In this document: positions 3,345 through 49,000 of the stretch, in pieces
Position numbering within the stretch: the stretch's first letter is position 1
Layout: the number at the start of each line of letters is the position of its first letter
IMG/VR virus record: IMGVR_UViG_3300038425_000083
Span: 12,069-76,068 of that record
Strand: one strand, 5' to 3'
Origin: a virus
DNA: 64,000 nt
Made by a program: the position numbers and the translations under genes
The notes under the pieces: model-generated
Told to the model about the DNA's origin: nothing
The model's input: the letters and a program-made list of their open reading frames with translations, nothing else
Database searches by the model: none

Positions 3345-6300
3345 ATGGAATACGTCATTATAGAGAAATCAGCTGAAGGTTCTAAACGAGCATGGCAAAC
3401 ACGTAAACATGGCGGTTCTCATAAAGAAGCAGAGAAGCCTAAACCTAAAGGCCCGGAGATAGACGCTCTTTTAACTAAGGAAGATAAGCTAAAAGAACAA
3501 GCTCTAAGAAAAGAAGTCGAAGTTTTTTCTGACGGCGACCTTTCTGCTTATGTCCAAGTCCTGCGGAAAAAGTTACAAACGAAATCCTGGAACGAATTAA
3601 ATGATTATGAGAAAAGATTTTATCCTCTTGTTCTTGATGAGCAAAGCAGGAGAAGACGTAAAGCTCTTGGGGCTATATTTGCTATAGAGATACCAGAGGT
3701 GCGTCTTGAAGATGTCAAGGAAAGAAAATCTCAACCAAGGAAGGTTTTAATGAATTCACTTCATGTAATCATAGAAAAATCAAGTGAAGGTGCTAAGAGA
3801 GCATGGGAAACAAGAAGACATGGTGGAAAGCATCTTGGCCCCGAGAAGCCAAAGTCAGCAAAGAAAGAGTTATCAGAAAGAGTTAGAGAACTTTCAGATG
3901 AACAACTTCAAGCTACTCATGAAAGGCTTGACAAGATACCATATTCCCAGATGAAGCCTGATGAAAGGAGACTATCTCATCTTGTAGCTTATGAACTGAT
4001 AGAAAGAAAGAGATTAAGACCCATTTCTCAAGACCCAATGGGAAGTCTTGCCAGGCAGGCTGCTAAAAAGGAAAGCGATGAACAGAGACTAAGAAGGAAG
4101 GGGCCTATTGAAACCCCTGGATTACCTGAAAGAGAACCTGAAGTTGTTGAAGAATTTAAAGTTGGAGACAAAGTCAAACATCCTACTTATGGAGAAGGAG
4201 TTGTTAGTGAAGTTCGCAAGATGAAAACCGGGACACCAGTTTATTATGTTAAGTATCCAGGGCGTGATTTGGCCTTCGCTCATGGAGACGAAGAGCTTGA
4301 AAAGGTTGAAGACGTAGCTAAGCCCAAAGAAGAAGTAAGCATGGGTACCAAAGTTCAGAAGTTAAAAGATAAGATCGAACAACAGCAAGCCGAACGGTAT
4401 GCGAAAGACTATCCTCATGTTGAACCTCCTAAAGTTACAGTCAAAGAGGGAGGGAAATACATTCGAGTTGACGTTGGAACTTCTGGCAAATACATGGTTG
4501 AGAAGGACACCGGGAACATCTATGGTATCAAAGGCTACGGAGTTATTCATAGAGGTCATTTCTATGGGACTTTGGATACGATAGATGATTTTAACTGGGG
4601 CGACTATGCAGCGTTTAGGACATTGTCTTTGAAAGATAGAGAATTCAAGGCTGAAAAGCCAGCTGAGCCGTCAGGTGTTGTTAGCATGGATACAGTCAAA
4701 GAAGATGTTAAGAAAATGCAAGAGAAGATCAATGCTCCTTGGGTTCATGTCCAGTCTTCAGATTTAGGTGGAGCAAAGAACGTTTCTATAATCATAAAAG
4801 CCTCGATGCAAAAGAAAGAAGAGTGGCATAATAACATACTACAGAACTCTCCCTATACAATGTTTCATTTGCTAACAGGTGGGGTGTTAGAGCAATTTCA
4901 AAGAAGCCCTGATTTGGATAAACTCGGAGCATTTAGAAAGACAAAAGTTAAGAGTGTGGTTGAAGCTATTCAAAAGATCAATAGCTATTTGAATCCACCA
5001 TTACCGCCAAGGAGAAAAATGCAGATCAAGAAGGGACAGATGTTTGTTATCATAGAGAAAGCCAGAAAGATTGGTTCTAAAGATAGTAAGAAGAGAAAGC
5101 GTAGAGGACAGAAAGAAAAAGAATTATATGAATTTTCTCACAAAGCAGCGTATGGACATTTGCCGTCATCTTCAACTCCATTTAAAGATGACTCCATTAG
5201 ATTCAAGAAAGCTGATATCCAGGTTCAACCATTCACAAGGACAGTCAAGGGAAAGTTTCAAAGAGTTCAACAGTTCTTTAGACCTGGCAAGGAAAGCTAT
5301 CCAGGAACAGAGAAGGGAGTTAATGACTTCATAAAGGATCATGTCGGACTTAGCAACTATGGGCATATCGTTGCAGACGAAGCAAAGAAGGAAGTTGATG
5401 TTGACGTTGCTGCGACAAACGCTTTTATGTCTGTTATGGGTCATGTTGTTGATAAAAAGGAGAAGCCGTCCTTAATCGCTAAAATAGGGTCTAAAATCAT
5501 TTCAAGAGGTGAACAGCCTACAATCCTTAGGCAGTTAGTCCAGAAAGATAAAAAAGCCTTCCAGGGGCTTTTAAAAGAACTCTTTAATAGGGTTCATGGG
5601 GATGTTAGAGAATTTAAGATGGAAATGGGCAAGTCCGTTGAAGGAATGCCTGTTGAATCGGTTAGAGCTCTTGCTGTTAGCCAGGCCATGAGAGAACTCA
5701 AAAAATCAAAATCTCCCGAGAAGGAAGAACATTGGAAGTGTAATAAGTGTGGGCATGAATTAGATGCCCCACATGAAGAAATGCTTAAAAGAATGGTGAC
5801 TTGTCCTGAATGTGGAGGAGCAATGGAGGAACTTAAGAAAGCTGGCTCAAGCGATGCTGCTCATAAAGCATGGCTTAAAAGAGAAGCCGAAAGAAGAGCT
5901 CTAAGAACAAGAGAGCGTGAAGGAACTAAGTTAGATGAACTCTCAGGACTTCAAGAAGCTGCAAGGAAAACCCGGGAACGAATATTTGCTCCAGGGAGAA
6001 CAGTTGAAACTCGGGGTAAGCGTCAGCTTACAGGAAAGGTAGTCAGGATAGTTGGAGATGCCCAGGCAAAAGTTCAATGGGAAGGTGGGTTGATAACCAT
6101 TGAGCCACTCATAGATTTAAAGCCAAAAGTTGATTTAGATATAAATCATCATGACCACATAGTTAAGAAGGGAACGTCAGAAGGAGCAAAGAAGGCCTGG
6201 TCACAAATGCAACATCAAGTTGCAAAGATTGCAGGTGTTCAAGAGAAGGTTAGAACTAAACAAAAGAATCAAGAAGAGATAGAACGACAAAAGAAACTTA

Positions 6301-6368
6301 AAGAAGGGGCCAAAAGTCTCAAGCGATTGGGTAAGCTTGGAATTTGGGGGAATAAAAATGATAGGTAA
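3345..6368 (+). CDS. 1007-aa tagged polyprotein (at least 6 tag-delimited units; KOW/SH3-like modules, Zn ribbon)
   Basis: K|S/A/G tags at 3366, 3777, 5058, 5208, 5838, 6168; FKVGDKVKHPTYGEGVV SH3/tudor-like segment; CNKCG..CPECG. Confidence 0.8.
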   Translation: MEYVIIEKSAEGSKRAWQTRKHGGSHKEAEKPKPKGPEIDALLTKEDKLKEQALRKEVEVFSDGDLSAYVQVLRKKLQTKSWNELNDYEKRFYPLVLDEQSRRRRKALGAIFAIEIPEVRLEDVKERKSQPRKVLMNSLHVIIEKSSEGAKRAWETRRHGGKHLGPEKPKSAKKELSERVRELSDEQLQATHERLDKIPYSQMKPDERRLSHLVAYELIERKRLRPISQDPMGSLARQAAKKESDEQRLRRKGPIETPGLPEREPEVVEEFKVGDKVKHPTYGEGVVSEVRKMKTGTPVYYVKYPGRDLAFAHGDEELEKVEDVAKPKEEVSMGTKVQKLKDKIEQQQAERYAKDYPHVEPPKVTVKEGGKYIRVDVGTSGKYMVEKDTGNIYGIKGYGVIHRGHFYGTLDTIDDFNWGDYAAFRTLSLKDREFKAEKPAEPSGVVSMDTVKEDVKKMQEKINAPWVHVQSSDLGGAKNVSIIIKASMQKKEEWHNNILQNSPYTMFHLLTGGVLEQFQRSPDLDKLGAFRKTKVKSVVEAIQKINSYLNPPLPPRRKMQIKKGQMFVIIEKARKIGSKDSKKRKRRGQKEKELYEFSHKAAYGHLPSSSTPFKDDSIRFKKADIQVQPFTRTVKGKFQRVQQFFRPGKESYPGTEKGVNDFIKDHVGLSNYGHIVADEAKKEVDVDVAATNAFMSVMGHVVDKKEKPSLIAKIGSKIISRGEQPTILRQLVQKDKKAFQGLLKELFNRVHGDVREFKMEMGKSVEGMPVESVRALAVSQAMRELKKSKSPEKEEHWKCNKCGHELDAPHEEMLKRMVTCPECGGAMEELKKAGSSDAAHKAWLKREAERRALRTREREGTKLDELSGLQEAARKTRERIFAPGRTVETRGKRQLTGKVVRIVGDAQAKVQWEGGLITIEPLIDLKPKVDLDINHHDHIVKKGTSEGAKKAWSQMQHQVAKIAGVQEKVRTKQKNQEEIERQKKLKEGAKSLKRLGKLGIWGNKNDR

Positions 6369-8901: not shown

Positions 8902-9180
8902 ATGGATAATGAAAATGCTCGTGAAGCATGGCTATTGCAGATAGAAAGAACTAAAAATGGTTATATACTTTTAGGGAATGATGGCCTGAGTGTTATTGAA
9001 GAAGATGATCAAGATGAACTTAAAGAACACGAGAAACTACTTTGGGCAGTCATGGAATATTTTGGTTTTCAAGGAAGCAAACATGACAAGCAACGTTTAC
9101 GAGTCATGCGAGAACAACAAGAGATTGGAATAGGAGACCAGACAATTAGGAGGGATAATGAAAGTTCAGGATGTAATTAG
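8902..9180 (+). CDS. hypothetical acidic protein
   Basis: GGAGG RBS before ATG8902. Confidence 0.6.
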   Translation: MDNENAREAWLLQIERTKNGYILLGNDGLSVIEEDDQDELKEHEKLLWAVMEYFGFQGSKHDKQRLRVMREQQEIGIGDQTIRRDNESSGCN

Positions 9181-9598
9181 CATCGGTGATCTTTATAAGG
9201 CCGTAGGTCATAAATATTTTAGCAAGAAACCAATCGGAGGAGGAAAATACAGATACAAGTATGTTTACCCTGAAGTTGTTTCAGGCAAGGAAGTCCTGGC
9301 TGCAGGTGAAGGCAAACCATCCCAGGCAGCTTTAACAAAGGTTAGAGAAGAAAAGAAAGTAGAGAAGACTTTGTGGGATCACTTAAACAGAGCAAAGACA
9401 GAAATCAAAGAAAAGTTTGGAAAGTTTGATATAGAACCGAGTCATGGAGGCCATGCTGTCATCCTAAAGTTTAAAGACGGAGCCAAGGCTTTAGCCCATA
9501 TGTCAGGGCGAACTAAAGATGATAAGCTTTTGATTGATACCGAGTGGCGAAGCGAACCTTATGTTCCAAAGCAACCCACATTTTATGTGAAAGAATAA
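9158..9598 (+). CDS. tagged protein (VISIGDLYK|AVGHKY..GGGKYRYKY tag)
   Basis: GGAGG RBS; the same HKY tag occurs inside the MuF polyprotein at 45823. Confidence 0.75.
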   Translation: MKVQDVISIGDLYKAVGHKYFSKKPIGGGKYRYKYVYPEVVSGKEVLAAGEGKPSQAALTKVREEKKVEKTLWDHLNRAKTEIKEKFGKFDIEPSHGGHAVILKFKDGAKALAHMSGRTKDDKLLIDTEWRSEPYVPKQPTFYVKE

Positions 9599-9600: not shown

Positions 9601-10059
9601 ATGACAAAATATAATAGTCTGGGAAAATTTGGAAAAGATTATTCTAATAAACGTTATAATGATAGAAAAGATGACCCTGAGTTCAAAGAACTTAAAAGTA
9701 ATCAATCAAAGAGATTTTATAAAAAGCACACTACTCGAGTTCTTGAAAAATGTAAAAAACGGAGAGATGATTTAAGAGACCAGGTTTTAAAGGCCTTTGG
9801 CCCATGGTGTGCAAATCTTTGGAATTGTCCGATTCCGAGTGAAAAATTGGATGTGCGAAGCTTGCAAATAGATCATATCAATAATGATGGTTATGAAGAT
9901 AGAAAAAAGTATAAAGGTAGAGGAGCAGCATATTATAAAAAAGTTTTAGCTCATCAAGAGGATTATCAACTTCTGTGTCCTTACTGTAATTGGATGAAGT
10001 TTATTAAACAGGATAAAACTAAGGCTGGAAAGAAGTCTTGGGTTCTGAGGAGAAAATGA
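9601..10059 (+). CDS. HNH endonuclease
   Basis: LQIDHINNDG ... YQLLCPYCN. Confidence 0.8.
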   Translation: MTKYNSLGKFGKDYSNKRYNDRKDDPEFKELKSNQSKRFYKKHTTRVLEKCKKRRDDLRDQVLKAFGPWCANLWNCPIPSEKLDVRSLQIDHINNDGYEDRKKYKGRGAAYYKKVLAHQEDYQLLCPYCNWMKFIKQDKTKAGKKSWVLRRK

Positions 10060-10268
10060 AAGCAGTAATTCAAACCATTGACGAGTTTATAAAATCAAGA
10101 ACTAAAGGTGCTAAAGACAAATTTAAAAGAAGACATAAGCCTAGTCCACCTGTTAATCTTGGTGAAAAGATAACAGCTTCTTTAGGCCAACAGATAAAAG
10201 AGCTCGAAACTCTGCAAGAGCGGAACAGAAGATTAGATAAACTCTTATCAGAGCAGGATAAAGAGTAA
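10056..10268 (+). CDS. tagged small protein (IQTIDEFIK|SRTKGAKDKFKRR)
   Basis: GAGGAG RBS before ATG10056; tag similar to that at 5058. Confidence 0.7.
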   Translation: MKAVIQTIDEFIKSRTKGAKDKFKRRHKPSPPVNLGEKITASLGQQIKELETLQERNRRLDKLLSEQDKE

Positions 10269-10402: not shown

Positions 10403-11170
10403 ATGAAAGTTCAAGTTATTAGTTTAGATGAGGAGTTTGAAAAATCAACCGAGTCTGCCAAGAAAGCTTGGAAGAAAAGAAAACATGGGAAAGCATTCCA
10501 GTTCGGAGAAGGACGTGGTTATGTAGGAGGCCCGCCAGAGGGAGATCCATTTCCTCATAAGAGATCGTTAGGCTGGAAGAAATGGATAGAGAGAAATCCG
10601 GACTGGATTAAAGAGCATCCAAAATGGAAACCCCCAAAAGTGACAGGTATAACTTTTAGGAGACCAGGCTCAAAACTAAAGAAAGCCGAAGGACAAGTTG
10701 TTATTCCGGCTCACATGGCAACCGTCCATGGTAAGAAAGTTATGGTTCAGCAATCAATACCTTTCATGGCTCCTGGAAGACACGGAGATTATACCAAGAA
10801 AGTTCACACAACGGAGAGGGAAGAAGGGGGTAAAACTCATATCAAATATCATACAACTGATGTAGTGTCTTTTGATTCCAATGAGATAACCTTAAGAGAT
10901 GGTGGATGGATGACAAGTTCCACAAAGAAGAGAATTAACCAAGCTTCAACAGAGCATGGACTTGGCATTAGCATCTTTCAGCATAAGAATGATTGGTTTG
11001 TTGCATACAAAGGAAAGACTATTCCTTTCAGAGACGAAATGACAATCAATCGTGAAAGAGGAGATACTCATTATGACAAATGGTTTGATATGACAGAGAA
11101 GGAAAAGAAAACTCTGGCAAGTTATGAAAAACGGTATCATCGAGCGGAAGAGATGGCAGGCCGCAAATAG
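10403..11170 (+). CDS. two-unit tagged protein
   Basis: VISLDEEFEK|STESAKKAW (10442) and LKK|AEGQVVIPAHMATVHGKKV (10682); C-terminal YHTTDVV..GGWMTSSTKKRINQ domain; start ATG10403 after GGGAG (ORF track starts 10286). Confidence 0.75.
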   Translation: MKVQVISLDEEFEKSTESAKKAWKKRKHGKAFQFGEGRGYVGGPPEGDPFPHKRSLGWKKWIERNPDWIKEHPKWKPPKVTGITFRRPGSKLKKAEGQVVIPAHMATVHGKKVMVQQSIPFMAPGRHGDYTKKVHTTEREEGGKTHIKYHTTDVVSFDSNEITLRDGGWMTSSTKKRINQASTEHGLGISIFQHKNDWFVAYKGKTIPFRDEMTINRERGDTHYDKWFDMTEKEKKTLASYEKRYHRAEEMAGRK

Positions 11171-18342: not shown

Positions 18343-18552
18343 ATGAGCACTCTTGAAATAAAATGTTCGATTTGCGGTGAAAATGTGGTATGGATTAGCG
18401 ATATAGGCACTTCTAATGACCTATTTCGTGACCATTTGAAAACTCATAAAGAGCATGACGTTGAAACCTTATACCCTGCGACATTTAAAAATATGAAAAT
18501 GATGGGATACTTTGAAGCTCCTATGGTCAGAAGGGTAATAAGGACAAGCTAA
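18343..18552 (+). CDS. C2H2-like Zn-finger protein ending in RRVIRTS
   Basis: CSICG..HLKTH; C-terminal VRRVIRTS. Confidence 0.6.
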   Translation: MSTLEIKCSICGENVVWISDIGTSNDLFRDHLKTHKEHDVETLYPATFKNMKMMGYFEAPMVRRVIRTS

Positions 18553-20747
18553 TGCTTTTTAATGTTATTGATTTAGGAAAATCAAAGTCATCTCATGAAG
18601 GCATGATCTTGGTGCCAACAGTTATTAATCTTCGTGGAAAGCAGGTTACAGTTGGCTATTGGAGATATCCAGAGGGAGTTAAAGGGCCTAAAGGAACCCG
18701 CAAGCCAACTATAAAAGTTCCCCGGGAACCGGTTCCAGAACCTAAGACTTCTTACGAAAAGAAAATATATGATGAGGCAGTTAGGATTCAAGAGACCGTT
18801 GAGGCCGCAGAAGATAAGTTAGATCAAGCTAAGAGAGAATTAAAAAAGATCAAGTCCCCGGAAGCTGGAAGCGAACATGCCGTCTCTTTAGTTCGTCAAG
18901 TTCACGAACTTGAAAGTCTTCTTAGTGAGTCTAAAGCAATAAAGACAGAGCTGAAATTAAATAGAATTCATCTTGAAGAGGAGTTATCAAAAAAGTTTCC
19001 AAAGTTTTCAAGAGAAGTTGGTGCAGGGGAGCATGGAGTAATAACTCATAAACCAGGATACGACATATATGTTGATCCAGACTCTGAACAGTTGATTTTA
19101 GTTTATAGATATCCAAAAGTTATAAAACATGAAACTCATCAAGAAATTGCTGGGCTCACGAAAGTTCCTGATCTTGTTGCCAGGGATATAACTTCTAAGG
19201 AAGTTAGAGACAAAGATTTTAAAGTTTTAGCAAACACAGTATCCTCAATGCTTGATAAAAGAGGATGGGACTTTACTGTTGATTCGGCTGGAAGACAAAT
19301 AAGAATTACAGGATATGCAGGTGGTGGGGTAACAAAGCATATCATTGATCTGAATGAAGCAGAGGAGAAATGGAGATTAAAAAAGGGACTCCCGGGGTTA
19401 GTTGCAAAGAAAGTTACTATAATGATGAGCGGTCATCCCTACCAAGGAGTCAGATGGGTTAATCCAAATCCTAAAACTGAATGGCGAAGAATTTTTATAG
19501 ACAAATACAATCTTGGAGGATTCGGATCAGAGCTTGGATTTAGCCCAGACGTTACAAAGAAAATAGATAAGGCTTTTGATCATCTTAGCAAAGCTTTAGT
19601 TGTTGATGGCAAAGGAGAATTAAAGATAACTGTTGGGCCGGAGATAGAAGGCGTAGAGAATGCTGAATACTTTACCGGTAAACATATTATACAGGTTTAT
19701 GGAAAAGATAATACCGAAAGCTTGGCGCATGAGTATGGTCATTGGATGTTTGATGCCAATATTCCTGACTTTCCATCGGTTTTTCCGAAGTCTTGGGATA
19801 AGGCAGATGTTATATCCTGGAAGAGCAAAGTAGAGAAGGTTGCAAAGACTGAACCTATCTTTGACCTTGTTTCTAAAGTTGTTGATTTCTATAAAAAGAA
19901 TCTTTATGAGTTTAAAGAGTTTAGTGATCGATGGGCTGCAACTCAACCAGACCCAAAAGAATTTGGGGATTCCATTAGGATGTATCTCTTTACTCCTCAG
20001 GAAATATTTGCCAGGGCTGTCAATGCTTATGTGGAGCAGGATATTTCAAGATCGTTCTTTACAGAACTTGAAGACGATCCTGCCTACTGGTCGATTGTCA
20101 ATTCGTGGGGAGCCAAGTATCTTAAGACAGGAATTGTCAAAAGCTTAGTAGAGTCATTTACTCGTGTTTCCCGAGGAAAGTTTCAAAAGGTTAAAGAGTT
20201 TTTTAGGAGGGGAGAAGAGAGATTAGAGGATCGTAACATTAGAACTTTTATTAAGCAACGTGATAAGCTACCGGATAAATTTAAGCCTTACGTTACTCCT
20301 TATACATTCGATGAAATAAAGAAAGGAAAGTTTAAAGTTTTTCTTGTAGCTCACAATACTGCAGGCGTACTTGTAAAGCCGGATGGAGAAATTGCTAATC
20401 TTTTTAGTCTTAAAAAAGGAAACGGCAAGCTTGCTCATAAAATAGCGCATGAGAATGGTGGAACATGGGGATATTGTTTTGATGGAAAACTTGTGAAGTA
20501 TTATAAGGAGTTAGGATCACCAGAATTTCATCGAGAGCCTAATTGGGAAAAGGGCAAACCTGATATAGTCTTCACAGGATATAAAAAGGATGTTATGAAA
20601 GCCTTAGACAAATTAAGAAACGACAAAAATATTAAGGCAGCCAAGGAGCGTTATAAAGAACTCAAGGCAAGGCTTGAAGGTACTGAGATTGATTATGCCA
20701 AGCTTGAGGACGATATGTTGGAAATGATGGGAGAACCTACAGAATAA
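18552..20747 (+). CDS. tagged polyprotein: coiled coil, zincin (LPD1/MPTase-like), GNAT-like domain
   Basis: FNVIDLGK|S leader; AHEYGH..PQEIFARA..WGAKYLKTGIVK|S; hairpin tag FTRVSRGKFQKV; GNGKLAHKIAHENGG..CFDGKLVKYYKELG. Confidence 0.8.
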   Translation: MLFNVIDLGKSKSSHEGMILVPTVINLRGKQVTVGYWRYPEGVKGPKGTRKPTIKVPREPVPEPKTSYEKKIYDEAVRIQETVEAAEDKLDQAKRELKKIKSPEAGSEHAVSLVRQVHELESLLSESKAIKTELKLNRIHLEEELSKKFPKFSREVGAGEHGVITHKPGYDIYVDPDSEQLILVYRYPKVIKHETHQEIAGLTKVPDLVARDITSKEVRDKDFKVLANTVSSMLDKRGWDFTVDSAGRQIRITGYAGGGVTKHIIDLNEAEEKWRLKKGLPGLVAKKVTIMMSGHPYQGVRWVNPNPKTEWRRIFIDKYNLGGFGSELGFSPDVTKKIDKAFDHLSKALVVDGKGELKITVGPEIEGVENAEYFTGKHIIQVYGKDNTESLAHEYGHWMFDANIPDFPSVFPKSWDKADVISWKSKVEKVAKTEPIFDLVSKVVDFYKKNLYEFKEFSDRWAATQPDPKEFGDSIRMYLFTPQEIFARAVNAYVEQDISRSFFTELEDDPAYWSIVNSWGAKYLKTGIVKSLVESFTRVSRGKFQKVKEFFRRGEERLEDRNIRTFIKQRDKLPDKFKPYVTPYTFDEIKKGKFKVFLVAHNTAGVLVKPDGEIANLFSLKKGNGKLAHKIAHENGGTWGYCFDGKLVKYYKELGSPEFHREPNWEKGKPDIVFTGYKKDVMKALDKLRNDKNIKAAKERYKELKARLEGTEIDYAKLEDDMLEMMGEPTE

Positions 20748-23954: not shown

Positions 23955-24435
23955 TGGATATTTGGAAGAACGGCGAAAAGATGGTCGTCTGGCAAAGCAT
24001 ATAGAACGTCTTGCAGCTATGTCCCGGGGTAAATCTAAGCCTCAGCATAGTAAATTAATGAAGCAAGTTATGAAGGGTAAAAATATTGAATCCACTAAAA
24101 GACTTTGGCAAGATGAAAACTATGCTAAAAATTGGGCACAAAAGTGTGGGCTAAAACCTAATAAACTTGAAAAAAGTTTCATGATCTTTTTGGGAGAAGA
24201 GGCTCCGAACGAATGGAGATATGTGGGCGATGGTTCAGTATGGATTGCAGGTAAAAATCCTGATTTCATTCATAAGGTAGAACGCAGAGTTATAGAATTG
24301 TTTGGTTCTTATTGGCACAAGAAAGAAGAAGAGAAAGAAAGAGTTTCTCATTTCGAGAAATACGGTTTTGAATGTATTATTGTTTGGGATAAACAATTTA
24401 AAGATTGGAAACAAAGTCTTGGCTATGTATTTTAG
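23914..24435 (+). CDS. Vsr/DUF559-like PD-(D/E)xK nuclease, probable homing endonuclease
   Basis: PNKLE..RYVGDG..NPDF..IELFGSYWH..IIVW; basic N-terminal repeats. Confidence 0.75.
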   Translation: MEENLKKKTANLLSGYLEERRKDGRLAKHIERLAAMSRGKSKPQHSKLMKQVMKGKNIESTKRLWQDENYAKNWAQKCGLKPNKLEKSFMIFLGEEAPNEWRYVGDGSVWIAGKNPDFIHKVERRVIELFGSYWHKKEEEKERVSHFEKYGFECIIVWDKQFKDWKQSLGYVF

Positions 24436-24451
24436 CCGAAGGAGGAGACAA

Positions 24452-34513: not shown

Positions 34514-35253
34514 TGATAGTCTATGTTGATGACCGATTAATGAAAGCTGACCGTAGCCATGTTGCCTTTGAAAGAACTGTTAAAGGCAAGCAACAACATA
34601 TCAAACAAAAGGGTTCGAAGAAAGAAGAAGAGACTGAGCAAAAAAATAAAAAGCCTAAAGGCGAGCAGGCCAGAACCGAAGCCAAAGGGATAGTCGATAG
34701 TATAGGAAATACTATGAAAATATTTAAACAGTCTGAAGGGATGTGCGGGCCGACGAGTGTTAGCATGGCATTGACAAAATTCAGAAAAAATTATTCTCCG
34801 GAACAAATAGCCAAGATTGCCCACTCTACGGCTTCGGAAGGAACAGATAGCGGTGAGTTGGTAAAGGCAATTAAATCTGTTGGTATAGATGTTGTTGAAT
34901 ATAAAAATTTAAGTAGGTTACATGCCTTGCATGTTCTTAGGAATCATACCAAGAATGGAGAGCCTTGTATCGTATCTTGGCTTAAAACAAAACTCGTATC
35001 TTCAAGTGAGTCCAGTATAAAGGGGTCAGAAGGGATGAAGCCTGGTTTTGAAGAAGTCCCGGACATGAAGACGATATCGAAAAAGCAAGCAGAAGAAGCA
35101 GAGCATTATTCAGTTGTTAAAAGTGTAGACGATAAGTATGTTCATATGCTTGATCCGTTGGAAGACAAAGAACAATCACTTCCAATTAAATATTTTTTGG
35201 ATAGATGGTGGGATTCAGAGGATAAGAGATGGTTCCTGGTCTTAACAAAATAG
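34513..35253 (+). CDS. tagged C39-like cysteine peptidase
   Basis: LMK|A plus hairpin tag; QSEGMCGP, EGT, HYSVV, MLDP. Confidence 0.8.
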   Translation: MIVYVDDRLMKADRSHVAFERTVKGKQQHIKQKGSKKEEETEQKNKKPKGEQARTEAKGIVDSIGNTMKIFKQSEGMCGPTSVSMALTKFRKNYSPEQIAKIAHSTASEGTDSGELVKAIKSVGIDVVEYKNLSRLHALHVLRNHTKNGEPCIVSWLKTKLVSSSESSIKGSEGMKPGFEEVPDMKTISKKQAEEAEHYSVVKSVDDKYVHMLDPLEDKEQSLPIKYFLDRWWDSEDKRWFLVLTK

Positions 35254-37771: not shown

Positions 37772-37919
37772 TTATGTCATTTTGAAAAAGGCTGAGAAGA
37801 AGTTACCAGATCATAACTCTATGCAATTTCACAAGGAACTTTTTGAAGTAGAAGATGATCTGATGGATTACTTAGACACATTGGAGAAAGAACCAAAGCA
37901 TGAGGCTCGTAATTCTTAA
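37752..37919 (+). CDS. small tagged protein (YVILKK|A), not in ORF track
   Basis: MAKLLTNYVILKKAEKKLPDHNSMQFHKELFEVEDDLMDYLDTLEKEPKHEARNS. Confidence 0.6.
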   Translation: MAKLLTNYVILKKAEKKLPDHNSMQFHKELFEVEDDLMDYLDTLEKEPKHEARNS

Positions 37920-39732
37920 ATCAAGCGAAAGTGCACGTAGGGCATGGGAAACAAGAAGATATGGAGGTTCTCATACAACCCTATCGACCGAACGCTCTGA
38001 ATATTACAAAGAAAGAGAAAAGCTTGACAAAGAGGTTTTTCTTAATGAGCTTCCAAAGTTTAGGGAAGAACTTAACATAAAAAAGTTTTATACAAAATTT
38101 CCTAAAGTGTCTTCTCAGATCGAAGAGAAGTTTCGAACTATTACTGAAAGTTACAGAAGCGGTGGTTTAGATGACTTGGGTGCTAAACCAGAAGAAGTAA
38201 GAGAGAAGATGCAAGTTGTTAAAGATGAAATAAAATCGTGGGGCGACAAACTTCAATTTAATGGAAGAGGTAGACTGTCTATTAAAGTCGGCACCATACC
38301 AAAAAGAGGAAGACATAAAACCTATGGTATGTACTACCCTGGGATTCAAGTTTTAGAAGTGGATCAAAGATACAAAAATTCTATAGCTCATGAGTATGCT
38401 CATTTTATTTTTGATGACAATGGATGGGAAGATAGCTACAAAGATAGTTTAGTTCATGGGAATTTCGATGAGGCTTATGAATTTGGGTTTACGAATTTTT
38501 TAGAGAAATTTTCTCAAGATATGGAATTTGTTCCCTCTGACATAAGTTCTGCAGGCACAGCTGCTACAATTAAAAATCAAGGGAAAGCACTTATAGAACT
38601 TTTCGCTCAGCTAAAAGATTTTTATAAACTTCCAGATGTTATGGAAAAATTTAAGAAAAGTCAAGACCCTCCTATCATTTGGGCGTCTACTGAGGCTTTA
38701 TCGGATAAGCAAAAGCTTACTCGAGAACGGATTGAACGGACGTTCGCCAGAGGAGTTTATAAAAGAGTTCAGAATCGTATGAAGTATCTATTTCGTCCAA
38801 CCGAAATATTTGCAAGAGCTGTTGGGTCATATGTATCAGAGGATTTTATTTCTAACCCGGTTGAAAAAGATGATAGATACAAGGCAATTGTAAAAGCCTG
38901 GGGTGATAAGTATCTGAAGACTGGTATTGTGAAGAGTTATGTGATTCTTGAAAAAGCCCAGATACAGATTAAGCCTTCTTTTAGGCATACGGCTTCTGGT
39001 AAGATAGTTCCTGTCAAAGGATTTACAGTTGAAAGGGAAACTTTTGAGCATGCCGTTCTTGCCGATGAATTTTTCAAATCACTTAAGGAGATTGAAGGAT
39101 CAGATTGGCAATTTGAACCCGGCGAAGTTTTTGATATGGGTGATAAAATAAATGTTGAAGTTAGATTGTGGGACCGAAGTAAGAATATCACAGAACTTGA
39201 ACCTTATAGAGCAAAGGGAACTTCTTTAACACGCTATAAAAAGATGTCTGGATACATTGGTCGTTTTGAATTGAATTTTCTTAAGAATGGGAAAGATGTG
39301 TATCTATCATCTTTATTTTTAAAAGACGAGTGGCAAGGTAAAGGTGTTGGCAATGATTTAATGAAGCGAGCTATAGACTTTGGAATTTCTAAAGGCTTCA
39401 AAAGTTTTGAACTCTTTGCAAATGGGGATGTCGGAACTTATGCGTGGGCTATCCAAGGATGGGATTTTGTTAAGAAAACAGAGAAACAAGATTTGCTTGG
39501 AGACTTTTGTAAATGGCTAAAGAAAAAATATAATGTAGAGAAAAATCCTCTGGATTTTCCTCATGCTTGGAATATAGCAGCGTTTAGAATAGGAGATGAG
39601 AAAGTCGGAAAAAAATTTATGACTGGAGATGGTCATAATGATTTCTGGGAAGGCGCTCTTAACGTTGGTAGCAAAGGCTACAAATTGTTTAAGGAATATC
39701 ATAGATTAAGGTTACTAAGGAAAATGAGTTAG
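37900..39732 (+). CDS. two-unit tagged polyprotein: zincin (LPD1/MPTase-like) and GNAT acetyltransferase
   Basis: LVILK|SSESARRAWETRRYGGSH; AHEYAH..PTEIFARA..WGDKYLKTGIVK|SYVILEK|A; QGKGVG acetyl-CoA motif. Confidence 0.85.
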   Translation: MRLVILKSSESARRAWETRRYGGSHTTLSTERSEYYKEREKLDKEVFLNELPKFREELNIKKFYTKFPKVSSQIEEKFRTITESYRSGGLDDLGAKPEEVREKMQVVKDEIKSWGDKLQFNGRGRLSIKVGTIPKRGRHKTYGMYYPGIQVLEVDQRYKNSIAHEYAHFIFDDNGWEDSYKDSLVHGNFDEAYEFGFTNFLEKFSQDMEFVPSDISSAGTAATIKNQGKALIELFAQLKDFYKLPDVMEKFKKSQDPPIIWASTEALSDKQKLTRERIERTFARGVYKRVQNRMKYLFRPTEIFARAVGSYVSEDFISNPVEKDDRYKAIVKAWGDKYLKTGIVKSYVILEKAQIQIKPSFRHTASGKIVPVKGFTVERETFEHAVLADEFFKSLKEIEGSDWQFEPGEVFDMGDKINVEVRLWDRSKNITELEPYRAKGTSLTRYKKMSGYIGRFELNFLKNGKDVYLSSLFLKDEWQGKGVGNDLMKRAIDFGISKGFKSFELFANGDVGTYAWAIQGWDFVKKTEKQDLLGDFCKWLKKKYNVEKNPLDFPHAWNIAAFRIGDEKVGKKFMTGDGHNDFWEGALNVGSKGYKLFKEYHRLRLLRKMS

Positions 39733-42676: not shown

Positions 42677-43015
42677 ATGAAAAAGAAACCAAAAAGTTTT
42701 TTAACCTTTGAAAGTTTTAGGGATAAGATAACTGTTATTTCAAGCATCTTGCTTATATTTGGTATGCTATTTGCAGCATGGATGTTTCTCGATAATAGAT
42801 ATGCCCAAAAGAAAGTTGAACAGAAACTGGATTATGTAAAATATAGCCTGCAGTTTCAAATGAACAACGATAAGATTTCGACATTGATGTCTTTGTACCC
42901 AAAAATAGAAACTGCTGATCCAGTCGTAAAGCAGCAACTTCAAACTTATATGGATACAAAGTTAGAACTCGTCCGTAAGATGGAAGTTTTAGAAAAGTTG
43001 GGGATAGGTCTATAA
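42677..43015 (+). CDS. single-TM coiled-coil protein
   Basis: TM segment then LDNRYA and coiled coil; TAATG-coupled to MuF. Confidence 0.6.
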   Translation: MKKKPKSFLTFESFRDKITVISSILLIFGMLFAAWMFLDNRYAQKKVEQKLDYVKYSLQFQMNNDKISTLMSLYPKIETADPVVKQQLQTYMDTKLELVRKMEVLEKLGIGL

Positions 43016-46000
43016 TGCCAAGGGTAAGGTTTGAACCTTTAAAGATAACAACTCTCTACGAAGAGAAAGTTGCTCAAAGCGTTAAGGATCGCTATAAGAG
43101 TCACATTAATAGAGAATCCCTTCGTCTCGTAAGTAACATCACGGATGACATGAGGGATAGGATTGCTGGATTAATGCACGAGGGTATTGACGAAGGTAGG
43201 TCAGTTAGTGCAACTGCCAGCACACTTCTTAAGACTGGTCTGGACAAAGGAGTTTTTAGATCGGCAAGACGAAGAGCCTATCTCATATCAAGAACTGAAT
43301 TACATAGAGCAAGACAACAAGGAGCTTTTGATCTTTATAGAGCAAATCATATTGATCTTGTTAAGTGGATTGCCATAGGAGATGAAAGAACATGCGATAC
43401 GTGTGCACCCCGAAACAACCATGTTTATAGGCTTAGCGAGATAGAGGGAGACTTACCGCCTATTCATCCAAGATGTAGGTGTAGAGTTGTGCCTTCAGAT
43501 TTTCAACTCGAGATAAGTGTTAGACGTGATCGAAGAGGAAAGATAATGGAAACAAGAATTTCTCCAACTCCTCAGAACTACAAATACTATGTGAGTCTTG
43601 ACAGGAAGCCAAGAAGACGAGTTAAGAAGTCACTCGAGAAGGCTGTTTCAGTCAGAGCATTTACAAGGTACGTTCCAGGCAGAGGGTTTCAAAGATATAA
43701 ACAGTTTCAAAGGGATGTAGCTGTTATTGATAAACCTGTTCCAAGGGATTTTTCATATGAGATAGCTAACTCTGGGGAAGATGTAGCAAATAAGATTGAG
43801 GAACGAAGAGAAGGAAAAGTTCGAGCTACTTATGCCGTTAATGCGGTTAGGGCTTGGAACATGGAAGCAAAAAATAAGTATCCTAACACTAATTATCTCG
43901 GTGACGTTGGCGTTAGAGAATGCTTACAAAATAGTTTGGATGCGGTCACAGAATCTTTAGAAAAAGGAGAGATAAAGAGGGGCAAGATCGAAATAGAACT
44001 TACTCCTCATAAAGAAAAGTACTCTGTCAAAGATAATGGAATAGGAATGTCCGATACAGACATTCGTGACAAGTTCCTTGCTCTTTACGGAACAGGGAAA
44101 GATATCAAAGGTAGATTCGGAGGATTTGGAATCGCTAAGGCTGTTATCTTGGCTCCTTCTGAAAGTTCACATTGGCAACTCAAAACAAGAGATAATTTCT
44201 TTGATGACAAGATGGCCTCTGCAAATGATCAGATTAAAGCCATTCCAAAAATTCAAGGAACACAAATTGATGTTTGGGCAGGGGAGGATATTGTTAGCGA
44301 AGATGCCAAGAAATATGTGGAGACGACTGAAGTTCCTAAAAATATAGGTATAAGATTTAAGTGGGCACTTGATGATTGGGAAACTTTAAAGAATCCTTTT
44401 CTGAAATTAAAGAGTGAAGTAAGTCATACTACGGCAAAGGGTTCTGAAATAACAATGTCTTTCTTTCCAAGACCGCCATCGGAATACAGAAATCATATGA
44501 TTTTGAGACTTGTTGACAAAAAGACCGGGGCTAAATTAACTCAGGCCATAAACCCTATATTTGGAGATTTTAAAGGGGCTTTAGTTGTTGATATAGAAAC
44601 AAGTGCAACCCCGGGCTCCGGTGGATATCCTCTTACCGATTCGAGAATGGGATTGAAGTGGGGAGAAGTTCAAGATTTTGTTAACACAGAAATAAGTCAA
44701 AGAACAAGAGAAAAGAAATCAGCTGAGCGAGTTGGTCAACAAGAGAAGTGGCTGGACTTACCGGAAGTTCCTGGCTGGAAAGATACTCTCGAGAGAATTA
44801 AAACAGATACAGGTTATGCATATCTTAAAGACACAATAGATAAAATTTGGCAAAAAGATTTTGTGTCGCAACATTTAAAAGGTATAGTATCAACAGATAT
44901 AGGAGAACAACCTTTTACCTCTCTTGAAAATATAAAGATACTTAGGGATGTTGGCTTTAAAGGTTCGGATGGCGGGACTGTTGCTCAAGCAAAGTTGATG
45001 CTGGCATTTGAGTCTTTAGCTCAGATGTATTCACAAACTTTGCAAAAAGCTGGTATGCATTGTCCGTTGTTTGGATTTCATGCTCTGTTGTCTAAAGCTA
45101 CATCGACCGGAGTGAGACTTGCACATTTTAGCAGACAAGAACATACTTTAGGTTTGGATATTAAATCTTTTCCTAAGAGTGCTTTCGCAAGTCCGGTTAG
45201 TCTTGCCTTAGAAATGGTCAACACTATTCAGCATGAGTTCACTCATAATTGGAGGAGGGAACACGACGAAGGTTTCACTTCTCAACTTGGGCAAATACAA
45301 ACGGTAACAGCGCCCTTATTTAATAGGGCTTTAGAGGTTGCAGGAGCGCTTCTCGGCAAGGATACCAGAATAACTATAGATACACCGCAAGGAATAGAAA
45401 AAATCAAGAGAAGCCATATTTGGACAATAGGAGAAAAACCAAAACAGCCTGAATGGAGAGCAGAACTTTTTCAGTTGTACAAGGAGATAGGGGGAAAGTC
45501 AGGAGCGACTGCAGTTTACAAGATTGCTGAAAAATATAACATTCCAGAGAAACGTGTAAGAATGGTTCTTGCCGGATACAAAGCGGCACAAAGCCGAAAG
45601 GAGAAGAAAGATGTCACTAAATCCATTACAGAAAGCAGCGTTGGATTCCGAGGCCCCGAGAGAACAAGTCATCCAAGGTTTGTTATCCAACTTGATAAAC
45701 GATTGCCTGATGAAAGCAGGGATCGATCCCAATGGGCCGATAGCAGGATCGATGCGGAAGCTGGGACAGGACGTTTGGGACTTGAGGGACGCTCTGGAAG
45801 AAGAGGGTTATTGGTAATAGAGAAAGCCAGATCTCACAAGTATCTCAGAAAAATACCGAGAGGATCGGGAAGATATGAATATATCTATCAGAGACCAGAT
45901 GTAGGTTTTCACGGAACCACTTCTAAGTTTTTAGAAACTATTCTTAAAGAAGGTTTAAGAAGTTCAAAAGATACCGGAGTTGCGTTGTATAGTGGAGAAT

Positions 46001-49000
46001 CACAATTTGGCCCAAAAGCTAAGAGATATGGAGTTTATTTCGCAAAAACTCCGGAAAGAGCTTTTGGTATTGCTGAAGTGGCAACAAAAAAATTTGGTGG
46101 GAAGCCTGTAATTTTTATTGCTAAAGTTGATCCTAAAAAAGCAGAATCGGATGAAGATTTTGCAGTTGTCTTGGGTGATCTCTTTCGTGATATTTCTCGA
46201 GACAAACCTCCTCTTTTAACGGGTAATGAAATTAGGCAGCGTCTCAAGGATTATAAATTAAGCTATGGGGAGACCTATTATATACCGCAAGATACGCAAT
46301 ATAGATTGAATACGTTATCTGACGGAAAATTGGAACGTCTGTACGATAATTGGCGGAAGGGAGGTTCTAAAGCGATAGATGAGGAGCTCACATCCAAAGA
46401 TAGTTGGAAAATATTTGGGAGTGCTGCATTTCCTGGTGATAAGCCAGAAGATATCAGAGCTGCTATTTTTTGGGATTGGGCTGAACATAAATATACAAGA
46501 ATAGGATCACCTTTTGAAAAGAAATTAGATAAAGCTTTAAGAAGGTTAAACTTAAGAGAAGTAACTAAACTTCCAGGGGCCCACGTTGTTGAAAATCCGG
46601 CCTTTATAAAAGCTTTAGAAGAGTTTGGATTCTTTGCGACATCTACCGGACTTTTGAAATCAGTTATGGGAGAAGATTTAAAGAAAGCCAGAAGCTATGT
46701 AAGATTCAGACATGGGAAGTATGAGCATGTTAAAGGATGGTCTGGAAAACCAAGATTATTTGATTTATCATCAGAGGACAAAATTCACCGTTATCTTCTT
46801 GACGCATCTTCCCCTGAAATAGAAAAAGCACTTCAAGTAGTTCAGGAAATACATGCTGTCGGTGGGCAAACTTTATTTATTGGAGGTTGCGTTAGAGATG
46901 CTTTGCTTGGCAAGAAGAGTAAAGATATCGATCTTGAAGTTTACAATGTGAAACCGGAAGAAGTTCGAGCAATTCTTGACCGAGCCGGAAAAGTAGATCA
47001 GGTAGGAAAGAGTTTTGGAGTTTTTAAACTCTCTTTTCCCGGAATGGAGGCTATTGATGTAGCCATTCCAAGAAGGGAAAGTAAAACTGGCAAAGGACAT
47101 AAAGGATTTATGGTAGATCATGATCCTTCAATGACTTTCAAGGAAGCTGCGGGACGTAGAGATTTAACTATCAATGCTTTGGCATACAATCCTATAGAGG
47201 ACAAGATAATTGATGAATATGGAGGCCTTCAGGACATTAAGGACAAGATATTAAGAGCTACAAACCCAGAAACCTTTGGAGAAGATTCATTAAGAGTATT
47301 GCGAGTTATGAGATTCGCTGCCCAGTTAGAATTCTCTCCGGATTTTAATCTTGCATGGCTTTGCAGGCAGATCGATCTGACCGATCTTCCAAAGGAGAGA
47401 ATTTTTGGGGAAGTTGCTGGAATGCTTCTTAAAGCAAAGAGACCAAGTATAGGATTAAGATTGATTCACATACTTGGAATTAATAAGATTCTCCCAGAGC
47501 TCGATGAACTTAAAGGAACAGAACAGGATGAGAAATGGCATCCTGAAGGGGATGTATGGGAGCACACATTATTGGCGGTAGACGAAGCCGCCAAGATGAA
47601 GAAGCAACTCGCAAATAATCAAGATAGACTGGTTTATATGCTTGGCGTCCTATGCCATGACATGGGAAAGCCAGAAACAACAGATGTTAATGAGGAGGGG
47701 AGAACAATCAGTCATGGGCATGACGAGATGGGAGCGAAGGTAGCTCAGGATTTTCTTGGAAGATTAACTGACGAGACAGATATTTTAGAAAGAGTTGAAG
47801 GTTTGGTAAGACATCACATGAGACCTACCTTCTTCTTTCATGACAAGGTTCCGGATTCAGCTATTAGAAGACTTGCAAAGAAAGTCGATATTCCAATGCT
47901 CCTTATGGTATCGGCTGCCGATAAATCCGGTAGAGGGGATAAAGACATTGATCTAAGTGCCGAGAGATGGATGATGAGAAAGTTCAAGAATCTAAAACTC
48001 GCACATCCTGAAACTCTCGAGCCGAAAGTCATGGGAAGACATCTCATTCCATTAGGCATTAAACCTGGCCCGGAGATGGGAAGAATTCTAGACAAGATTT
48101 ACAATGCTCAGCTGGAAGGTAAGTTTGAAACCACAGATGCTGGTTTGGAATATGCTAATCAGCAAGGATGGTTAAAGACAGAAGAAGATACTGTCATTAA
48201 AGCTGTTCCCGTTAAGAAACTTATAACAAGTAGAGGGAAAACTTTTCTCCATACTTACTATGAAAATAGAAGTGGCTTAGGCCCCGGATTTTTTGCAGGA
48301 GCCGAGCCTTTGGTTGTAAATAAAATGTCTTTCAAGCAAAGTGAGGATCAGAAAAGATGGGGAGAAGAAGTTGTTCTTGTTGATGTTTCTAAATTTGATG
48401 CTGAATGGAGTAAAGACGAAGGATTTTATATTTCTTCTTCTGGAAAGAATGAGATTAGCAATAGGAGAGAAAAATTCCAAGAGTTTCTCAAAACTGGAAA
48501 GCCTATTATAATGCCTTCGGTCTCTGTAAGAGATATCGGATCGAGGGGTCTTATAGGTTTTACAAATGGAAGACATAGATTTGCAGTTCTCAGAGATATG
48601 GGCTTTACAGAAATTCCTGTATCTGTGGATGCGAAATCTGCGAAGATGGCAAAGGAACTCTTTAAAGCCCCAAGTTTAAAGGAGAAACTGGAAGCGCAAA
48701 ATTACTGGTGGAAAACCGTTGCCGGAGGAATCGAAAGCAAGTATGAGGGGGTTAAAATAGTTTACGCAGGAAAGAAGACATCTGAAGGGTTTACCCATAC
48801 TTATGCAGATGAGCAGTTCCAAGATGCAATAGATATGATTCCGGAAGAGCATAGGAAGCTTATTGATTCAGTGATTCTTGAGCCTGGGAGTGTATTGGGT
48901 GAAGATGGCAAAGCTGAATTTGGTCGTGTTTTTGAAGGAACAAGTTCTATTCACATATACCGTGGGGTTCAACTTCATGAGTATGGAACCAGTTTTGAAG

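What the first reader, a model, noticed from the sequence alone, without database searches (positions are those of the whole stretch)
5058..48270. Three further interchangeable tags occupy the same slot after K|S/A
SEEN: (a) beta-hairpin-like tag F-x-R-x(2-4)-GK-x(2-3)-V: KK|ADIQVQPFTRTVKGKFQRV (5208), VK|SLVESFTRVSRGKFQKV (20139), MK|ADRSHVAFERTVKGKQQHI (34543), EK|AQIQIKPSFRHTASGKIVPV (38953), EK|AVSVRAFTRYVPGRGFQRY (43639), KK|ARSYVRFRHGKYEHV (46684), with looser copies at 10682, 18579 and 48199. (b) HKY tag: YK|AVGHKYFSKKPIGGGKYRYKY (9197) and EK|ARSHKYLRKIPRGSGRYEYIY (45823). (c) AT-hook-like tag: EK|ARKIGSKDSKKRKRR (5058) and IK|SRTKGAKDKFKRR (10092). All are short, basic, and precede unrelated cargo. 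INFERENCE: a vocabulary of alternative nucleic-acid tethers or routing signals, perhaps sorting cargo by ejection order or target (DNA vs RNA).
Basis: partly seen in the sequence, partly recalled or inferred. Interest (0 to 1): 0.82.

Follow-up and report, generated by a model that had tools for sequence, protein, structure and literature searches.

The report
Interchangeable basic tags on phage cargo
An uncultured SPO1-like phage starts many enzyme modules, right after a probable head-protease cut site, with one of several short basic peptides, and related phages use a different peptide at the same position, so these are portable, swappable tags of still unproven function.

Summary
All three tag families are real and occur in other phages.

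- **(a) Hairpin tag, consensus VKGFTRTRKGKFERVKPYSR.** A profile built only from other phages detects four window copies. Two more are placed by orthology. Copies 10682 and 18579 have no support.
- **(b) HKY tag.** It occurs in about 60 protein clusters, in front of Zeta-toxin, NUDIX, CCA-adding and sigma-factor modules.
- **(c) K|[AS]-R-x-x-G-[AS]-K-D-K-x-K-R-K.** It recurs in at least 7 other contigs or proteins. It lacks the G-R-P core, so it is not an AT-hook.

Outside this phage, (a) and (b) are still preceded by K-[AS] (23/26 and 14/21 copies; background 9%).

Orthologous and paralogous slots carry different tags: main KAWETRR tag vs hairpin, main vs (c), HKY vs hairpin. A sister phage (MCP 76% identical) has (a) and (c) but no main tag. 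Interchangeability is therefore supported, and routing by cargo class is not.

No Pfam family or solved structure matches the tags, and Iyer 2017 does not mention them. Cleavage, capsid loading and nucleic-acid binding are all untested. My best guess is generic polyanion-binding handles.

This scan has already found similar cassettes (HKY, basic hairpin) in at least 8 other genomes.

The parts
5208..5282 (+). Hairpin tag (a), K|ADIQVQPFTRTVKGKFQRVQQFFR, inside ORF 3345-6368
   Evidence: External-only HMM 24.1 bits, no shuffled hit reaches it. AF2 with a 16-sequence tag alignment gives a beta-ribbon with pLDDT 94-96.
20139..20210 (+). Hairpin tag (a) after the MPTase end YLKTGIVK|S in ORF 18552-20747
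   Evidence: External HMM 9.9 bits. phrog_21154 match, E 0.022. Paralogous slot comparison.
34543..34614 (+). Hairpin tag (a) at the N-terminus of a C39 peptidase (ORF 34513-35253), after leader MIVYVDDRLMK
   Evidence: External HMM 19.9 bits. Five of six orthologs start MxYVILEK|[AS] (or a close variant) plus a hairpin, with a variable linker; in the sixth, P0081, the hairpin has decayed. The tag is detached in the AF2 model.
38953..39027 (+). Diverged hairpin tag (a) after YVILEK|A, before the GNAT domain in ORF 37900-39732
   Evidence: Canonical leader and slot. Pattern match only, no significant HMM score.
43639..43713 (+). Hairpin tag (a) after the MuF domain of polyvalent ORF 43015-49707
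   Evidence: Aligned by BLASTP to the post-MuF hairpin of P0072. Weak HMM score: 3.4 bits leave-one-out.
45823..45897 (+). HKY tag (b), K|ARSHKYLRKIPRGSGRYEYIY, before the ART/Tpt1-like domain
   Evidence: The orthologous slot in P0072 carries a type (a) hairpin.
46684..46740 (+). Hairpin tag (a), K|ARSYVRFRHGKYEHVKGW, before the CCA-adding/HD module
   Evidence: External HMM 17.9 bits. Orthologous to P0072 res. 752, P0074 res. 1520 and G001 g45772 res. 412. phrog_21154 match, E 8.6e-4.
48199..48261 (+). Decayed hairpin remnant, K|AVPVKKLITSRGK..., at the post-CCA slot
   Evidence: Aligned with canonical hairpins of G001, P0072 and P0079 at the same slot.
9197..9271 (+). HKY tag (b) at the N-terminus of ORF 9158-9598, after leader MKVQDVISIGDLYK
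5058..5105 (+). Basic linear tag (c), FVIIEK|ARKIGSKDSKKRKRR, in ORF 3345-6368
   Evidence: (P0076 has VLEK|ARKLGSKDQKPRKKR).
10092..10133 (+). Basic linear tag (c), DEFIK|SRTKGAKDKFKRR, in the small ORF 10038-10268
10682..10756 (+). 'Looser' hairpin candidate. Not supported as a member.
   Evidence: E 0.028 only with the seed HMM that includes K[AS]. Absent from the external HMM hit list.
18579..18662 (+). 'Looser' hairpin candidate at the N-terminus of ORF 18552. Not supported as a member.
   Evidence: Not found by any profile.
52133..53680 (+). Prohead protease. It carries a main tag after ILAK|S where the G001 ortholog carries hairpin (a).
   Evidence: phrog_1028, E 4.5e-39. Sequences compared.
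55005..56417 (+). Major capsid protein with the conserved N-terminal ELNK|ALAAG junction
   Evidence: phrog_752. 46% identical to Bacillus Herelleviridae MCPs. K|A is conserved in G001, G003, G004, G005, G008 and CP-51.

Best explanation
The three peptides are discrete, portable, strongly basic modules. They occupy the first 15-25 residues after a hydrophobic-leader-Lys|Ala/Ser junction in proteins that this SPO1-like phage probably loads into its head.

Types (a) and (b) are aromatic/basic beta-hairpins. Type (c) is a linear Lys/Arg stretch. Together with the commoner KAWETRR tag they are alternative fillers of one slot, and evolution swaps them freely between orthologs and paralogs. The slot can also be empty.

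Inferred steps:
1. The head-maturation protease cuts after the Lys, as at the conserved K|A of the capsid protein.
2. The short leader is lost, and the tag stays as the new N-terminus of each released enzyme module.
3. Unrelated sequences sharing only a high positive charge substitute for each other. The tags therefore most likely act as generic polyanion-binding handles, binding packaged DNA and/or the poly-Glu tract of the scaffold. This would hold the cargo in the head and let it leave with the DNA. They are unlikely to be cargo-specific routing codes.

I put about 0.85 on the modular, interchangeable-slot part and about 0.35 on the polyanion-handle function.
For: Real and widespread:
- The profile search with the hairpin core found 9 proteins carrying 2-6 copies each, all between Pfam domains.
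- HKY occurs in about 60 clusters.
- Tag (c) occurs in G001, P0076 and 5 further contigs.

Independent K-[AS] association: 23/26 hairpins and 14/21 HKY copies, against a 9.2% background.

Swaps at the same slot. G001 (MCP 76% identical) has 11 hairpins, 3 type (c) tags and no main tag. The complete genomes G003 and G004 use HKY only.

Not part of the cargo fold: variable linkers and AF2 pLDDT <50 for residues 1-74 of the C39 protein.

Hairpin shape: AF2 on the tag alignment gives pLDDT 94-96, with strands 16-20 and 23-27.

Charge of +4 to +7.

Cleavage does not need a tag: the MCP and scaffold have K|A/S junctions without tags, and four strong leaders (33242, 37262, 37788, 41753) have no tag.

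The scaffolds carry long poly-Glu tracts.

The K|A junction at the MCP N-terminus is conserved across the lineage.
Against: - Nothing here shows cleavage, packaging or binding to DNA or scaffold.
- Positive charge is a weak predictor of function.
- The conserved aromatic residues of (a) and (b) suggest a specific protein contact rather than plain electrostatics.
- In G001 one hairpin ends a protein (g45386). There it would be cut off as a free peptide, which fits an address label better than a tether.
- The copies are related by descent, so the binomial P values overstate independence. K-[AS] could be part of the module rather than a separate cut site.
- The AF2 hairpin is a model of an isolated 40-mer.
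Confidence: 0.5

Rival explanations
1. The tags are specific capsid-loading peptides (address labels). Each would dock on a defined site of scaffold, capsid protein, portal or protease during procapsid assembly, like encapsulin cargo-loading peptides or the DarB and T4 targeting sequences.
For: - The tags are restricted to non-structural cargo and the protease, and absent from MCP and scaffold.
- Conserved aromatic positions.
- The C-terminal hairpin of G001 g45386 would be cut off after use.
- HKY-bearing phages share the same MCP family.
Against: - Four unrelated tag types coexist in one phage.
- Tags are exchanged between sister phages whose MCP is 76% identical and whose scaffold is about 54-59% identical.
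- Tagless leader sites exist.
- Polyproteins repeat the tag at every module, although one address would be enough.
Confidence: 0.2
2. The tags are substrate-presentation elements. The hairpin or basic stretch on the P' side would expose or position the K|A/S bond for the protease, with no role afterwards.
For: - The tag always follows the junction directly.
- The AF2 model places the junction in the ascending strand of the ribbon.
Against: MCP, scaffold and four cargo leaders have the junction without any tag. Very different structures, including a helix-prone main tag, a hairpin and a linear basic stretch, would all have to serve the same purpose.
Confidence: 0.1
3. The K-[AS] junctions are not cut by the head protease. 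Leader plus tag would be a conserved inter-domain connector of polyvalent proteins, and any processing would be done by the embedded zincin (MPTase) domains, as Iyer et al. proposed.
For: - ORFs 18552, 37900 and 43015 contain HExxH zincin modules.
- A conserved K|S lies exactly at the end of that module.
- Iyer 2017 proposes MPTase autoprocessing.
Against: - The same junction starts many single-domain proteins right after Met (MxYVILEK|S), with no MPTase present.
- It also occurs in MCP, scaffold and protease, conserved across the lineage.
Confidence: 0.1
4. One reading: tag type encodes a route, such as ejection order or a DNA versus RNA target.
For: Several tag types coexist in one phage.
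Against: - Orthologous cargo carries different tags in sister phages.
- Hairpin (a) fronts a peptidase, an acetyltransferase, an ATPase and a tRNA nucleotidyltransferase.
- Whole lineages use a single tag type.
Confidence: 0.05
5. The similarities are chance or low-complexity resemblance, or the peptides are integral N-terminal parts of the downstream domains.
For: - Copies 10682 and 18579 have no statistical support.
- Only two window copies each of (b) and (c).
Against: External profiles, pattern scans and ortholog comparisons. Variable linkers and detachment in AF2.
Confidence: 0.03

Closest known systems
Phage-type polyvalent proteins (Iyer, Burroughs, Anand, de Souza, Aravind 2017, PMC5512222)
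   Same: ORF 43015 is a MuF-headed chain of effector domains (GHKL, ART-like, CCA-adding/HD, zincins) next to head genes. Homologs P0072, P0074 and P0079 carry ART-PolyVal, PolyA_pol, HD and Acb1/2H domains.
   Different: The passages of the paper returned by my term searches mention neither junction peptides nor a leader-K|A/S motif, and propose MPTase autoprocessing. None of its LPD or other Pfam families covers the tags.
T4 capsid targeting sequence of IPI-III and Alt, cut by gp21 (Mullaney and Black 1996, as cited in PMC9024508 and PMC10052503)
   Same: A short N-terminal peptide ending at a head-protease site on proteins that are packed and injected. The leader MxYVILEK| resembles it in position and length.
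   Different: The T4 signal lies on the removed (P) side and the cut is after Glu. The tags studied here lie on the retained (P') side, come in several unrelated types, and recur inside polyproteins.
Phage P1 DarB N-terminal capsid-localisation signal (PMC9024508)
   Same: The first 30 residues are enough to load a foreign protein into the head. The cargo is a giant anti-restriction polyvalent protein.
   Different: That paper found no consensus among the Dar proteins, and the P1 MCP is cut at E|S. Here the signals are conserved, modular and shared by many proteins.
Proteolytic maturation of ejection proteins in phiKZ-like phages (SPN3US gp245, PMC10052503)
   Same: One head protease cuts MCP, portal, itself and internal or ejection proteins at a shared short motif.
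   Different: The motif there ends in Glu, and mostly long N-terminal propeptides are removed. No recurrent tag on the mature N-terminus is described.
AT-hook (core G-R-P flanked by basic residues)
   Same: Tag (c) is a short Lys/Arg-rich stretch containing G-[SA]-K, like the flanks of AT-hooks.
   Different: No G-R-P core in any copy, so it is not an AT-hook by definition.
phrog_21154 (47-position PHROG, function unknown)
   Same: It matches the hairpin core in P0075 (E 8.5e-8), P0077 and P0078, and weakly matches window hairpins 46684 and 20139.
   Different: It is an unannotated cluster. It records neither function, nor context, nor the link to K|A/S junctions.

Membership tests
Phage-type polyvalent protein (Iyer 2017) | Several unrelated effector domains in one polypeptide, often headed by MuF | tested here: met
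   ORF 43015: Phage_Mu_F, HATPase_c_3, PolyA_pol and HD, plus a Tpt1/PARP-like stretch.
Phage-type polyvalent protein (Iyer 2017) | Encoded among late or virion genes | tested here: met
   Portal at 25945, protease at 52133, scaffold at 54212 and MCP at 55005 lie on the same strand.
T4-type capsid targeting sequence | Lies N-terminal to the protease site and is removed on maturation | tested here: not met
   The tags lie C-terminal to the K|A/S junction. Only the leader fits this feature.
T4-type capsid targeting sequence | Necessary and sufficient for loading a foreign protein into the head | not testable with these tools
   Needs reporter fusions in a procapsid assembly system.
AT-hook | G-R-P core | tested here: not met
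   ARKIGSKDSKKRKRR, SRTKGAKDKFKRR and all external copies lack G-R-P.
Substrate of an HK97-like head protease cutting after Lys | Same P1/P1' pair as the phage's own capsid-protein maturation site | tested here: inconclusive
   A K|A junction near the MCP N-terminus is conserved in 7 related phages. It also occurs in scaffold and protease. The MCP site itself is inferred, not measured, and I found no published N-terminal sequence for this lineage.
Substrate of an HK97-like head protease cutting after Lys | Cleavage observed | not testable with these tools
   Needs proteomics. Trypsin also cuts after Lys, so another protease or N-terminal labelling is required.
Encapsulin-type cargo-loading peptide | Peptide docks on the inner face of an HK97-fold shell protein | not tested

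The most novel reading that the evidence does not exclude
Many uncultured tailed phages with this capsid lineage share a modular 'cargo grammar': a removable hydrophobic leader ending in Lys, then one of a small set of interchangeable basic tags (KAWETRR, FTRTRKGK hairpin, HKY hairpin, GAKDK-KRK, and others). Any enzyme could then be loaded into the head, cut free and delivered with the DNA. The tags would be the part that holds cargo on DNA or scaffold, and would be transferable to foreign proteins.
Probability: 0.35. Interest if true: 0.85.

Novelty: new variant of a known kind. Interest (0 to 1): 0.62.

Why it matters
Phage heads are known to deliver enzymes (T4 internal proteins and Alt, the P1 Dar proteins, phiKZ ejection proteins). 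How diverse cargo is recruited and kept is understood only for a few model phages.

Here the signal is short, conserved, modular and demonstrably swappable between orthologs. That gives several practical openings:
- A sequence-level handle to predict the injected proteome of uncultured phages.
- A way to find new anti-defence effectors, since whatever follows a tag is a candidate.
- A starting point for engineering capsids that carry chosen proteins.

It also revises the view that polyvalent proteins are processed mainly by their own metallopeptidase domains.

Tried and rejected
- tblastn of single tags and of an HKY-bearing small protein against 50,697 cultured-phage records found nothing useful.
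- megablast of 20 kb of the window found nothing.
- The word-indexed search with the hairpin alignment returned only the window's own proteins. The index-free profile search was needed.
- Single-protein related-loci runs gave almost nothing. An alignment query found G001.
- Idea that (a) and (b) are one family: hhalign score 7.3, while column-shuffled controls reach 8.5, so this is not supported. They remain separate types, even though they replace each other at the pre-ART slot.
- PDB sequence searches with both tag profiles gave no meaningful match.
- AF2 of the whole C39 protein gave no confident structure for the tag.
- The hairpin profile found no match in CP-51 or in G002-G008. The positive control G001 gave 11 matches.
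- The weak DUF3892 similarity of the HKY region (E 0.005, below the cut-off) was not pursued.
- Literature searches for a measured MCP maturation site in SPO1-like phages found none.
- As a result I could not examine the genomic context of database proteins or test tag-MCP/scaffold docking.


Full report
**Setting**

The window is 64 kb of a 76-kb IMG/VR phage contig, estimated 65% complete. The same proteins occur on contigs of up to 179 kb. Nearly all genes lie on the + strand.

PHROGs identify a portal (25945), a head-maturation protease (52133), a scaffold (54212) and a major capsid protein (55005). The MCP is about 46% identical to MCPs of Bacillus Herelleviridae such as CP-51.

ORF 43015 (2230 aa) is a MuF-headed polyvalent protein with GHKL, PolyA_pol/CCA-adding and HD domains. 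Many proteins begin with, or contain, a hydrophobic leader ending in Lys followed by Ala/Ser, for example MEYVIIEK|S and YVILEK|A. Most often the next residues are a 'main' tag, SEGAKKAWETRR-GGSH, which is the subject of other notes on this genome. My finding concerns three rarer peptides in the same position.

**Observation**

All 13 quoted peptides are present in frame, and the stated coordinate is the Lys codon. They are basic: net +4 to +7 in 24 residues, against a proteome background of 0.5 +/- 2.8. Copies that share amino acids often use different codons. For example, 5208 and 34543 share 8/12 residues but only 2/8 identical codons. Conservation is therefore at the protein level and these are not recent DNA repeats.

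**Hairpin tag (a)**

- *Within the genome.* Leave-one-out profiles without the K[AS] recover 5208, 20139 and 34543 as the top non-seed hit (E 7e-6 to 2e-3, with no hit in 20 shuffled proteomes). 43639 is recovered only marginally, and 38953 and 46684 are not recovered.
- *Outside the genome.* The index-free search of 1.84 billion representative proteins with the tag core found nine proteins at E <= 1e-3, each with 2-6 copies. The consensus is (Q)VKGFTRTRKGKFERVKPYSR. Three of the nine are MuF, ART-PolyVal, PolyA_pol, HD or Acb1-like polyvalent proteins, and the hairpins lie between the Pfam domains.
- *External profile.* A profile built only from these external copies plus those of sister phage G001 detects window copies 5208, 34543, 46684 and 20139. 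The best shuffled hit scores 5.8 bits.
- *Placement by orthology.* 43639 aligns to the post-MuF hairpin of P0072. 48199 is a decayed remnant at the post-CCA slot, where G001, P0072 and P0079 have canonical hairpins.
- *Unsupported copies.* 38953 sits behind a perfect YVILEK|A leader but is supported only by pattern. 10682 and 18579 have no support.
- *Predicted shape.* AF2 on a 16-sequence alignment of leader plus tag predicts a two-stranded beta-ribbon with the turn at the invariant G-K (mean pLDDT 82, and 94-96 for residues 11-30).
- *Existing catalogues.* The unannotated 47-position phrog_21154 covers the same core.

**HKY tag (b)**

A back-translated pattern scan of IMG/VR and a word-indexed profile search found about 60 protein clusters carrying HKY-[IL]-[KR]-R-x3-G-x-G-[YW]-x-Y-x-Y.

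The motif fronts Zeta-toxin kinases, NUDIX/Kinase-PolyVal proteins, a CCA-adding enzyme, a sigma-factor/zincin protein and many small proteins. It occurs 2-4 times in single polyvalent proteins such as P0004, P0005, P0040 and P0062. In IMG/VR loci, neighbouring genes each start with a leader plus HKY.

The complete genomes G003 and G004 carry five and six HKY tags respectively, in genes within about 20 kb of their capsid genes. They carry no other tag type beyond chance regex hits.

**Tag (c)**

The motif K|[AS]-R-x-x-G-[AS]-K-D-K-x-K-R-K follows a leader three times in G001, once in P0076, and nine times in five further contigs. No copy has a G-R-P core, so it is not an AT-hook in the strict sense.

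**Link to the junction**

The hairpin and HKY profiles and patterns did not include K-[AS]. Even so, 23/26 non-redundant external hairpins and 14/21 HKY copies have K-[AS] within ten residues upstream (20/21 HKY copies if K-[GT] is counted). The background is 9.2%. The copies are related by descent, so these are not independent trials.

The MCP N-terminus carries a conserved h-x-K|A-[LM]-x-A junction in the window, in G001, G003, G004, G005 and G008, and in Bacillus phage CP-51. The scaffold and the protease carry such junctions too. This fits a head protease that cuts after Lys, as HK97 gp4 does at K103|S104 of gp5 (established knowledge). I found no measured site for this lineage, and cleavage is not shown.

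**Interchangeability**

This is the specific claim of the finding, and it holds.

- *G001 as comparator.* G001 is IMGVR_UViG_3300032401_001693. Its MCP is 76% identical, its scaffold 54-59%, and its polyvalent protein 57-61%. The 102-kb contig is estimated 53% complete. It has 11 hairpins, three type (c) tags and no main tag.
- *Colinear orthologs differ exactly at the slot.*
  - w20789 has AAKKAWETRKFGGSH where g34949 has HKAYTRIKGGKLQRI.
  - w24302 has K|TSEGAKKAWLTRR where g17992 has K|ARTKGAKDKEKRKRK.
  - The prohead protease has ILAK|SSEGAKKAWITRRKG where G001 has FLVK|AINIAGYIRTRKGKLERV.
- *Pre-ART slot of the polyvalent protein.* The window has HKY and P0072 has hairpin (a).
- *Within the window.* Three paralogs end their zincin module with WGDKYLKTGIVK|S and continue with hairpin, hairpin or main tag.
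- *A stable slot.* Five of six orthologs of the C39 peptidase keep a recognisable hairpin, but the linker to the domain varies from about 15 to 65 residues, and the closest relative has lost the hairpin.
- *Detachment from the fold.* AF2 models the C39 domain and leaves residues 1-74 unstructured.
- *Empty slots.* Four strong leaders (33242, 37262, 37788, 41753) have no tag.

The tags are therefore neither parts of the cargo folds nor required for the junction.

**Mechanism**

- *Shown.* The tags are modular, recurrent, basic peptides in a fixed position after K-[AS]. They are swappable across orthologs and each lineage has its own preferences.
- *Inferred.* The head protease cuts at the junction and the tag is retained on the mature N-terminus.
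- *Best guess (about 0.35).* The tags are generic polyanion-binding handles, for packaged DNA and/or the poly-Glu tract present in the scaffolds. This explains why unrelated basic sequences substitute for one another and why every module of a polyprotein has its own.
- *Rivals.* Specific loading peptides, protease presentation elements, and uncut connectors processed by the embedded zincins, as proposed by Iyer et al..

**Comparison with what is known**

The closest frameworks are:
- Polyvalent proteins (PMC5512222).
- The T4 capsid targeting sequence.
- The DarB localisation signal of P1, whose first 30 residues are enough to load a foreign protein and for which no consensus among Dar proteins was found (PMC9024508).
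- Protease-processed ejection proteins of phiKZ-like phages (PMC10052503).

None of them describes conserved tags on the retained side of the cut. No Pfam family and no solved structure covers them.

This scan has already reported similar cassettes in at least eight other genomes, including an HKY cassette and basic hairpin tags. What this window adds is four tag types in one phage and direct evidence of slot swapping.

**Limits**

Because of this I could not examine the genomic context of the database proteins or test docking of tags on MCP or scaffold.

Noticed in passing
window 52133-53680 (about residues 236-283) versus 55005-56417 (residues 27-65): The prohead protease contains a copy of the first ~35 residues of the mature capsid protein (LAAGHDNPASSGGISGSALR..SL). 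G001 and Bacillus phage CP-51 proteases have the same feature, there preceded by EK|A or QK|T. It may be a capsid-protein mimic used for co-assembly or self-cleavage.
   Followed up: partly
window 52133-53680, C-terminal ~80 residues: After its tag, the protease ends in a small domain (ITSMSDKALLNRATKI...FYLAA). The same domain recurs inside the unrelated tagged proteins P0075 and P0080 and in the G001 protease. It is a candidate for the real capsid-binding element.
   Followed up: no
G001 g17992 (L036 17992-18981); P0073 C-terminus; P0077: Further tag types occupy the same slot in relatives: LEK|SKGGFR[ML]ARG, and EK|GRGPDKQ[KP]RK, which has a G-R-G-P core.
   Followed up: no
window ORFs 11124, 18552 and 37900; G001 g45772; P0074: The zincin (HExxH) module ends in a conserved WG-x-KYLKTG-[IV]-[IVM]-K|S in five proteins. 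A junction therefore lies exactly at the end of the metallopeptidase domain.
   Followed up: partly
G001 24753-27953 (L037) versus window 25945-27615: The G001 portal ORF is 1066 aa against 556 aa here. A ~500-aa block is inserted between residues matching 1-292 and 280-498 of the window portal. It could be an intein or an inserted cargo domain.
   Followed up: no
window 784-1596 and 2908-3342: Both ORFs match the C-terminal part of the G001 scaffold (43-49% identity over 47-58 residues).
   Followed up: partly
window 24302-25120: The listed TTG start is probably wrong. Alignment with G001 g17992 suggests a start at the Met of MAIKGIVRTLDEIKK|S, about 60 codons downstream.
   Followed up: partly
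window 54212-54907: The scaffold has a poly-Glu/Asp tract (EEEEEDEDEEELEE), also present in G001 and, in looser form, in CP-51 gp33. It is a possible counter-charge for the basic tags.
   Followed up: no
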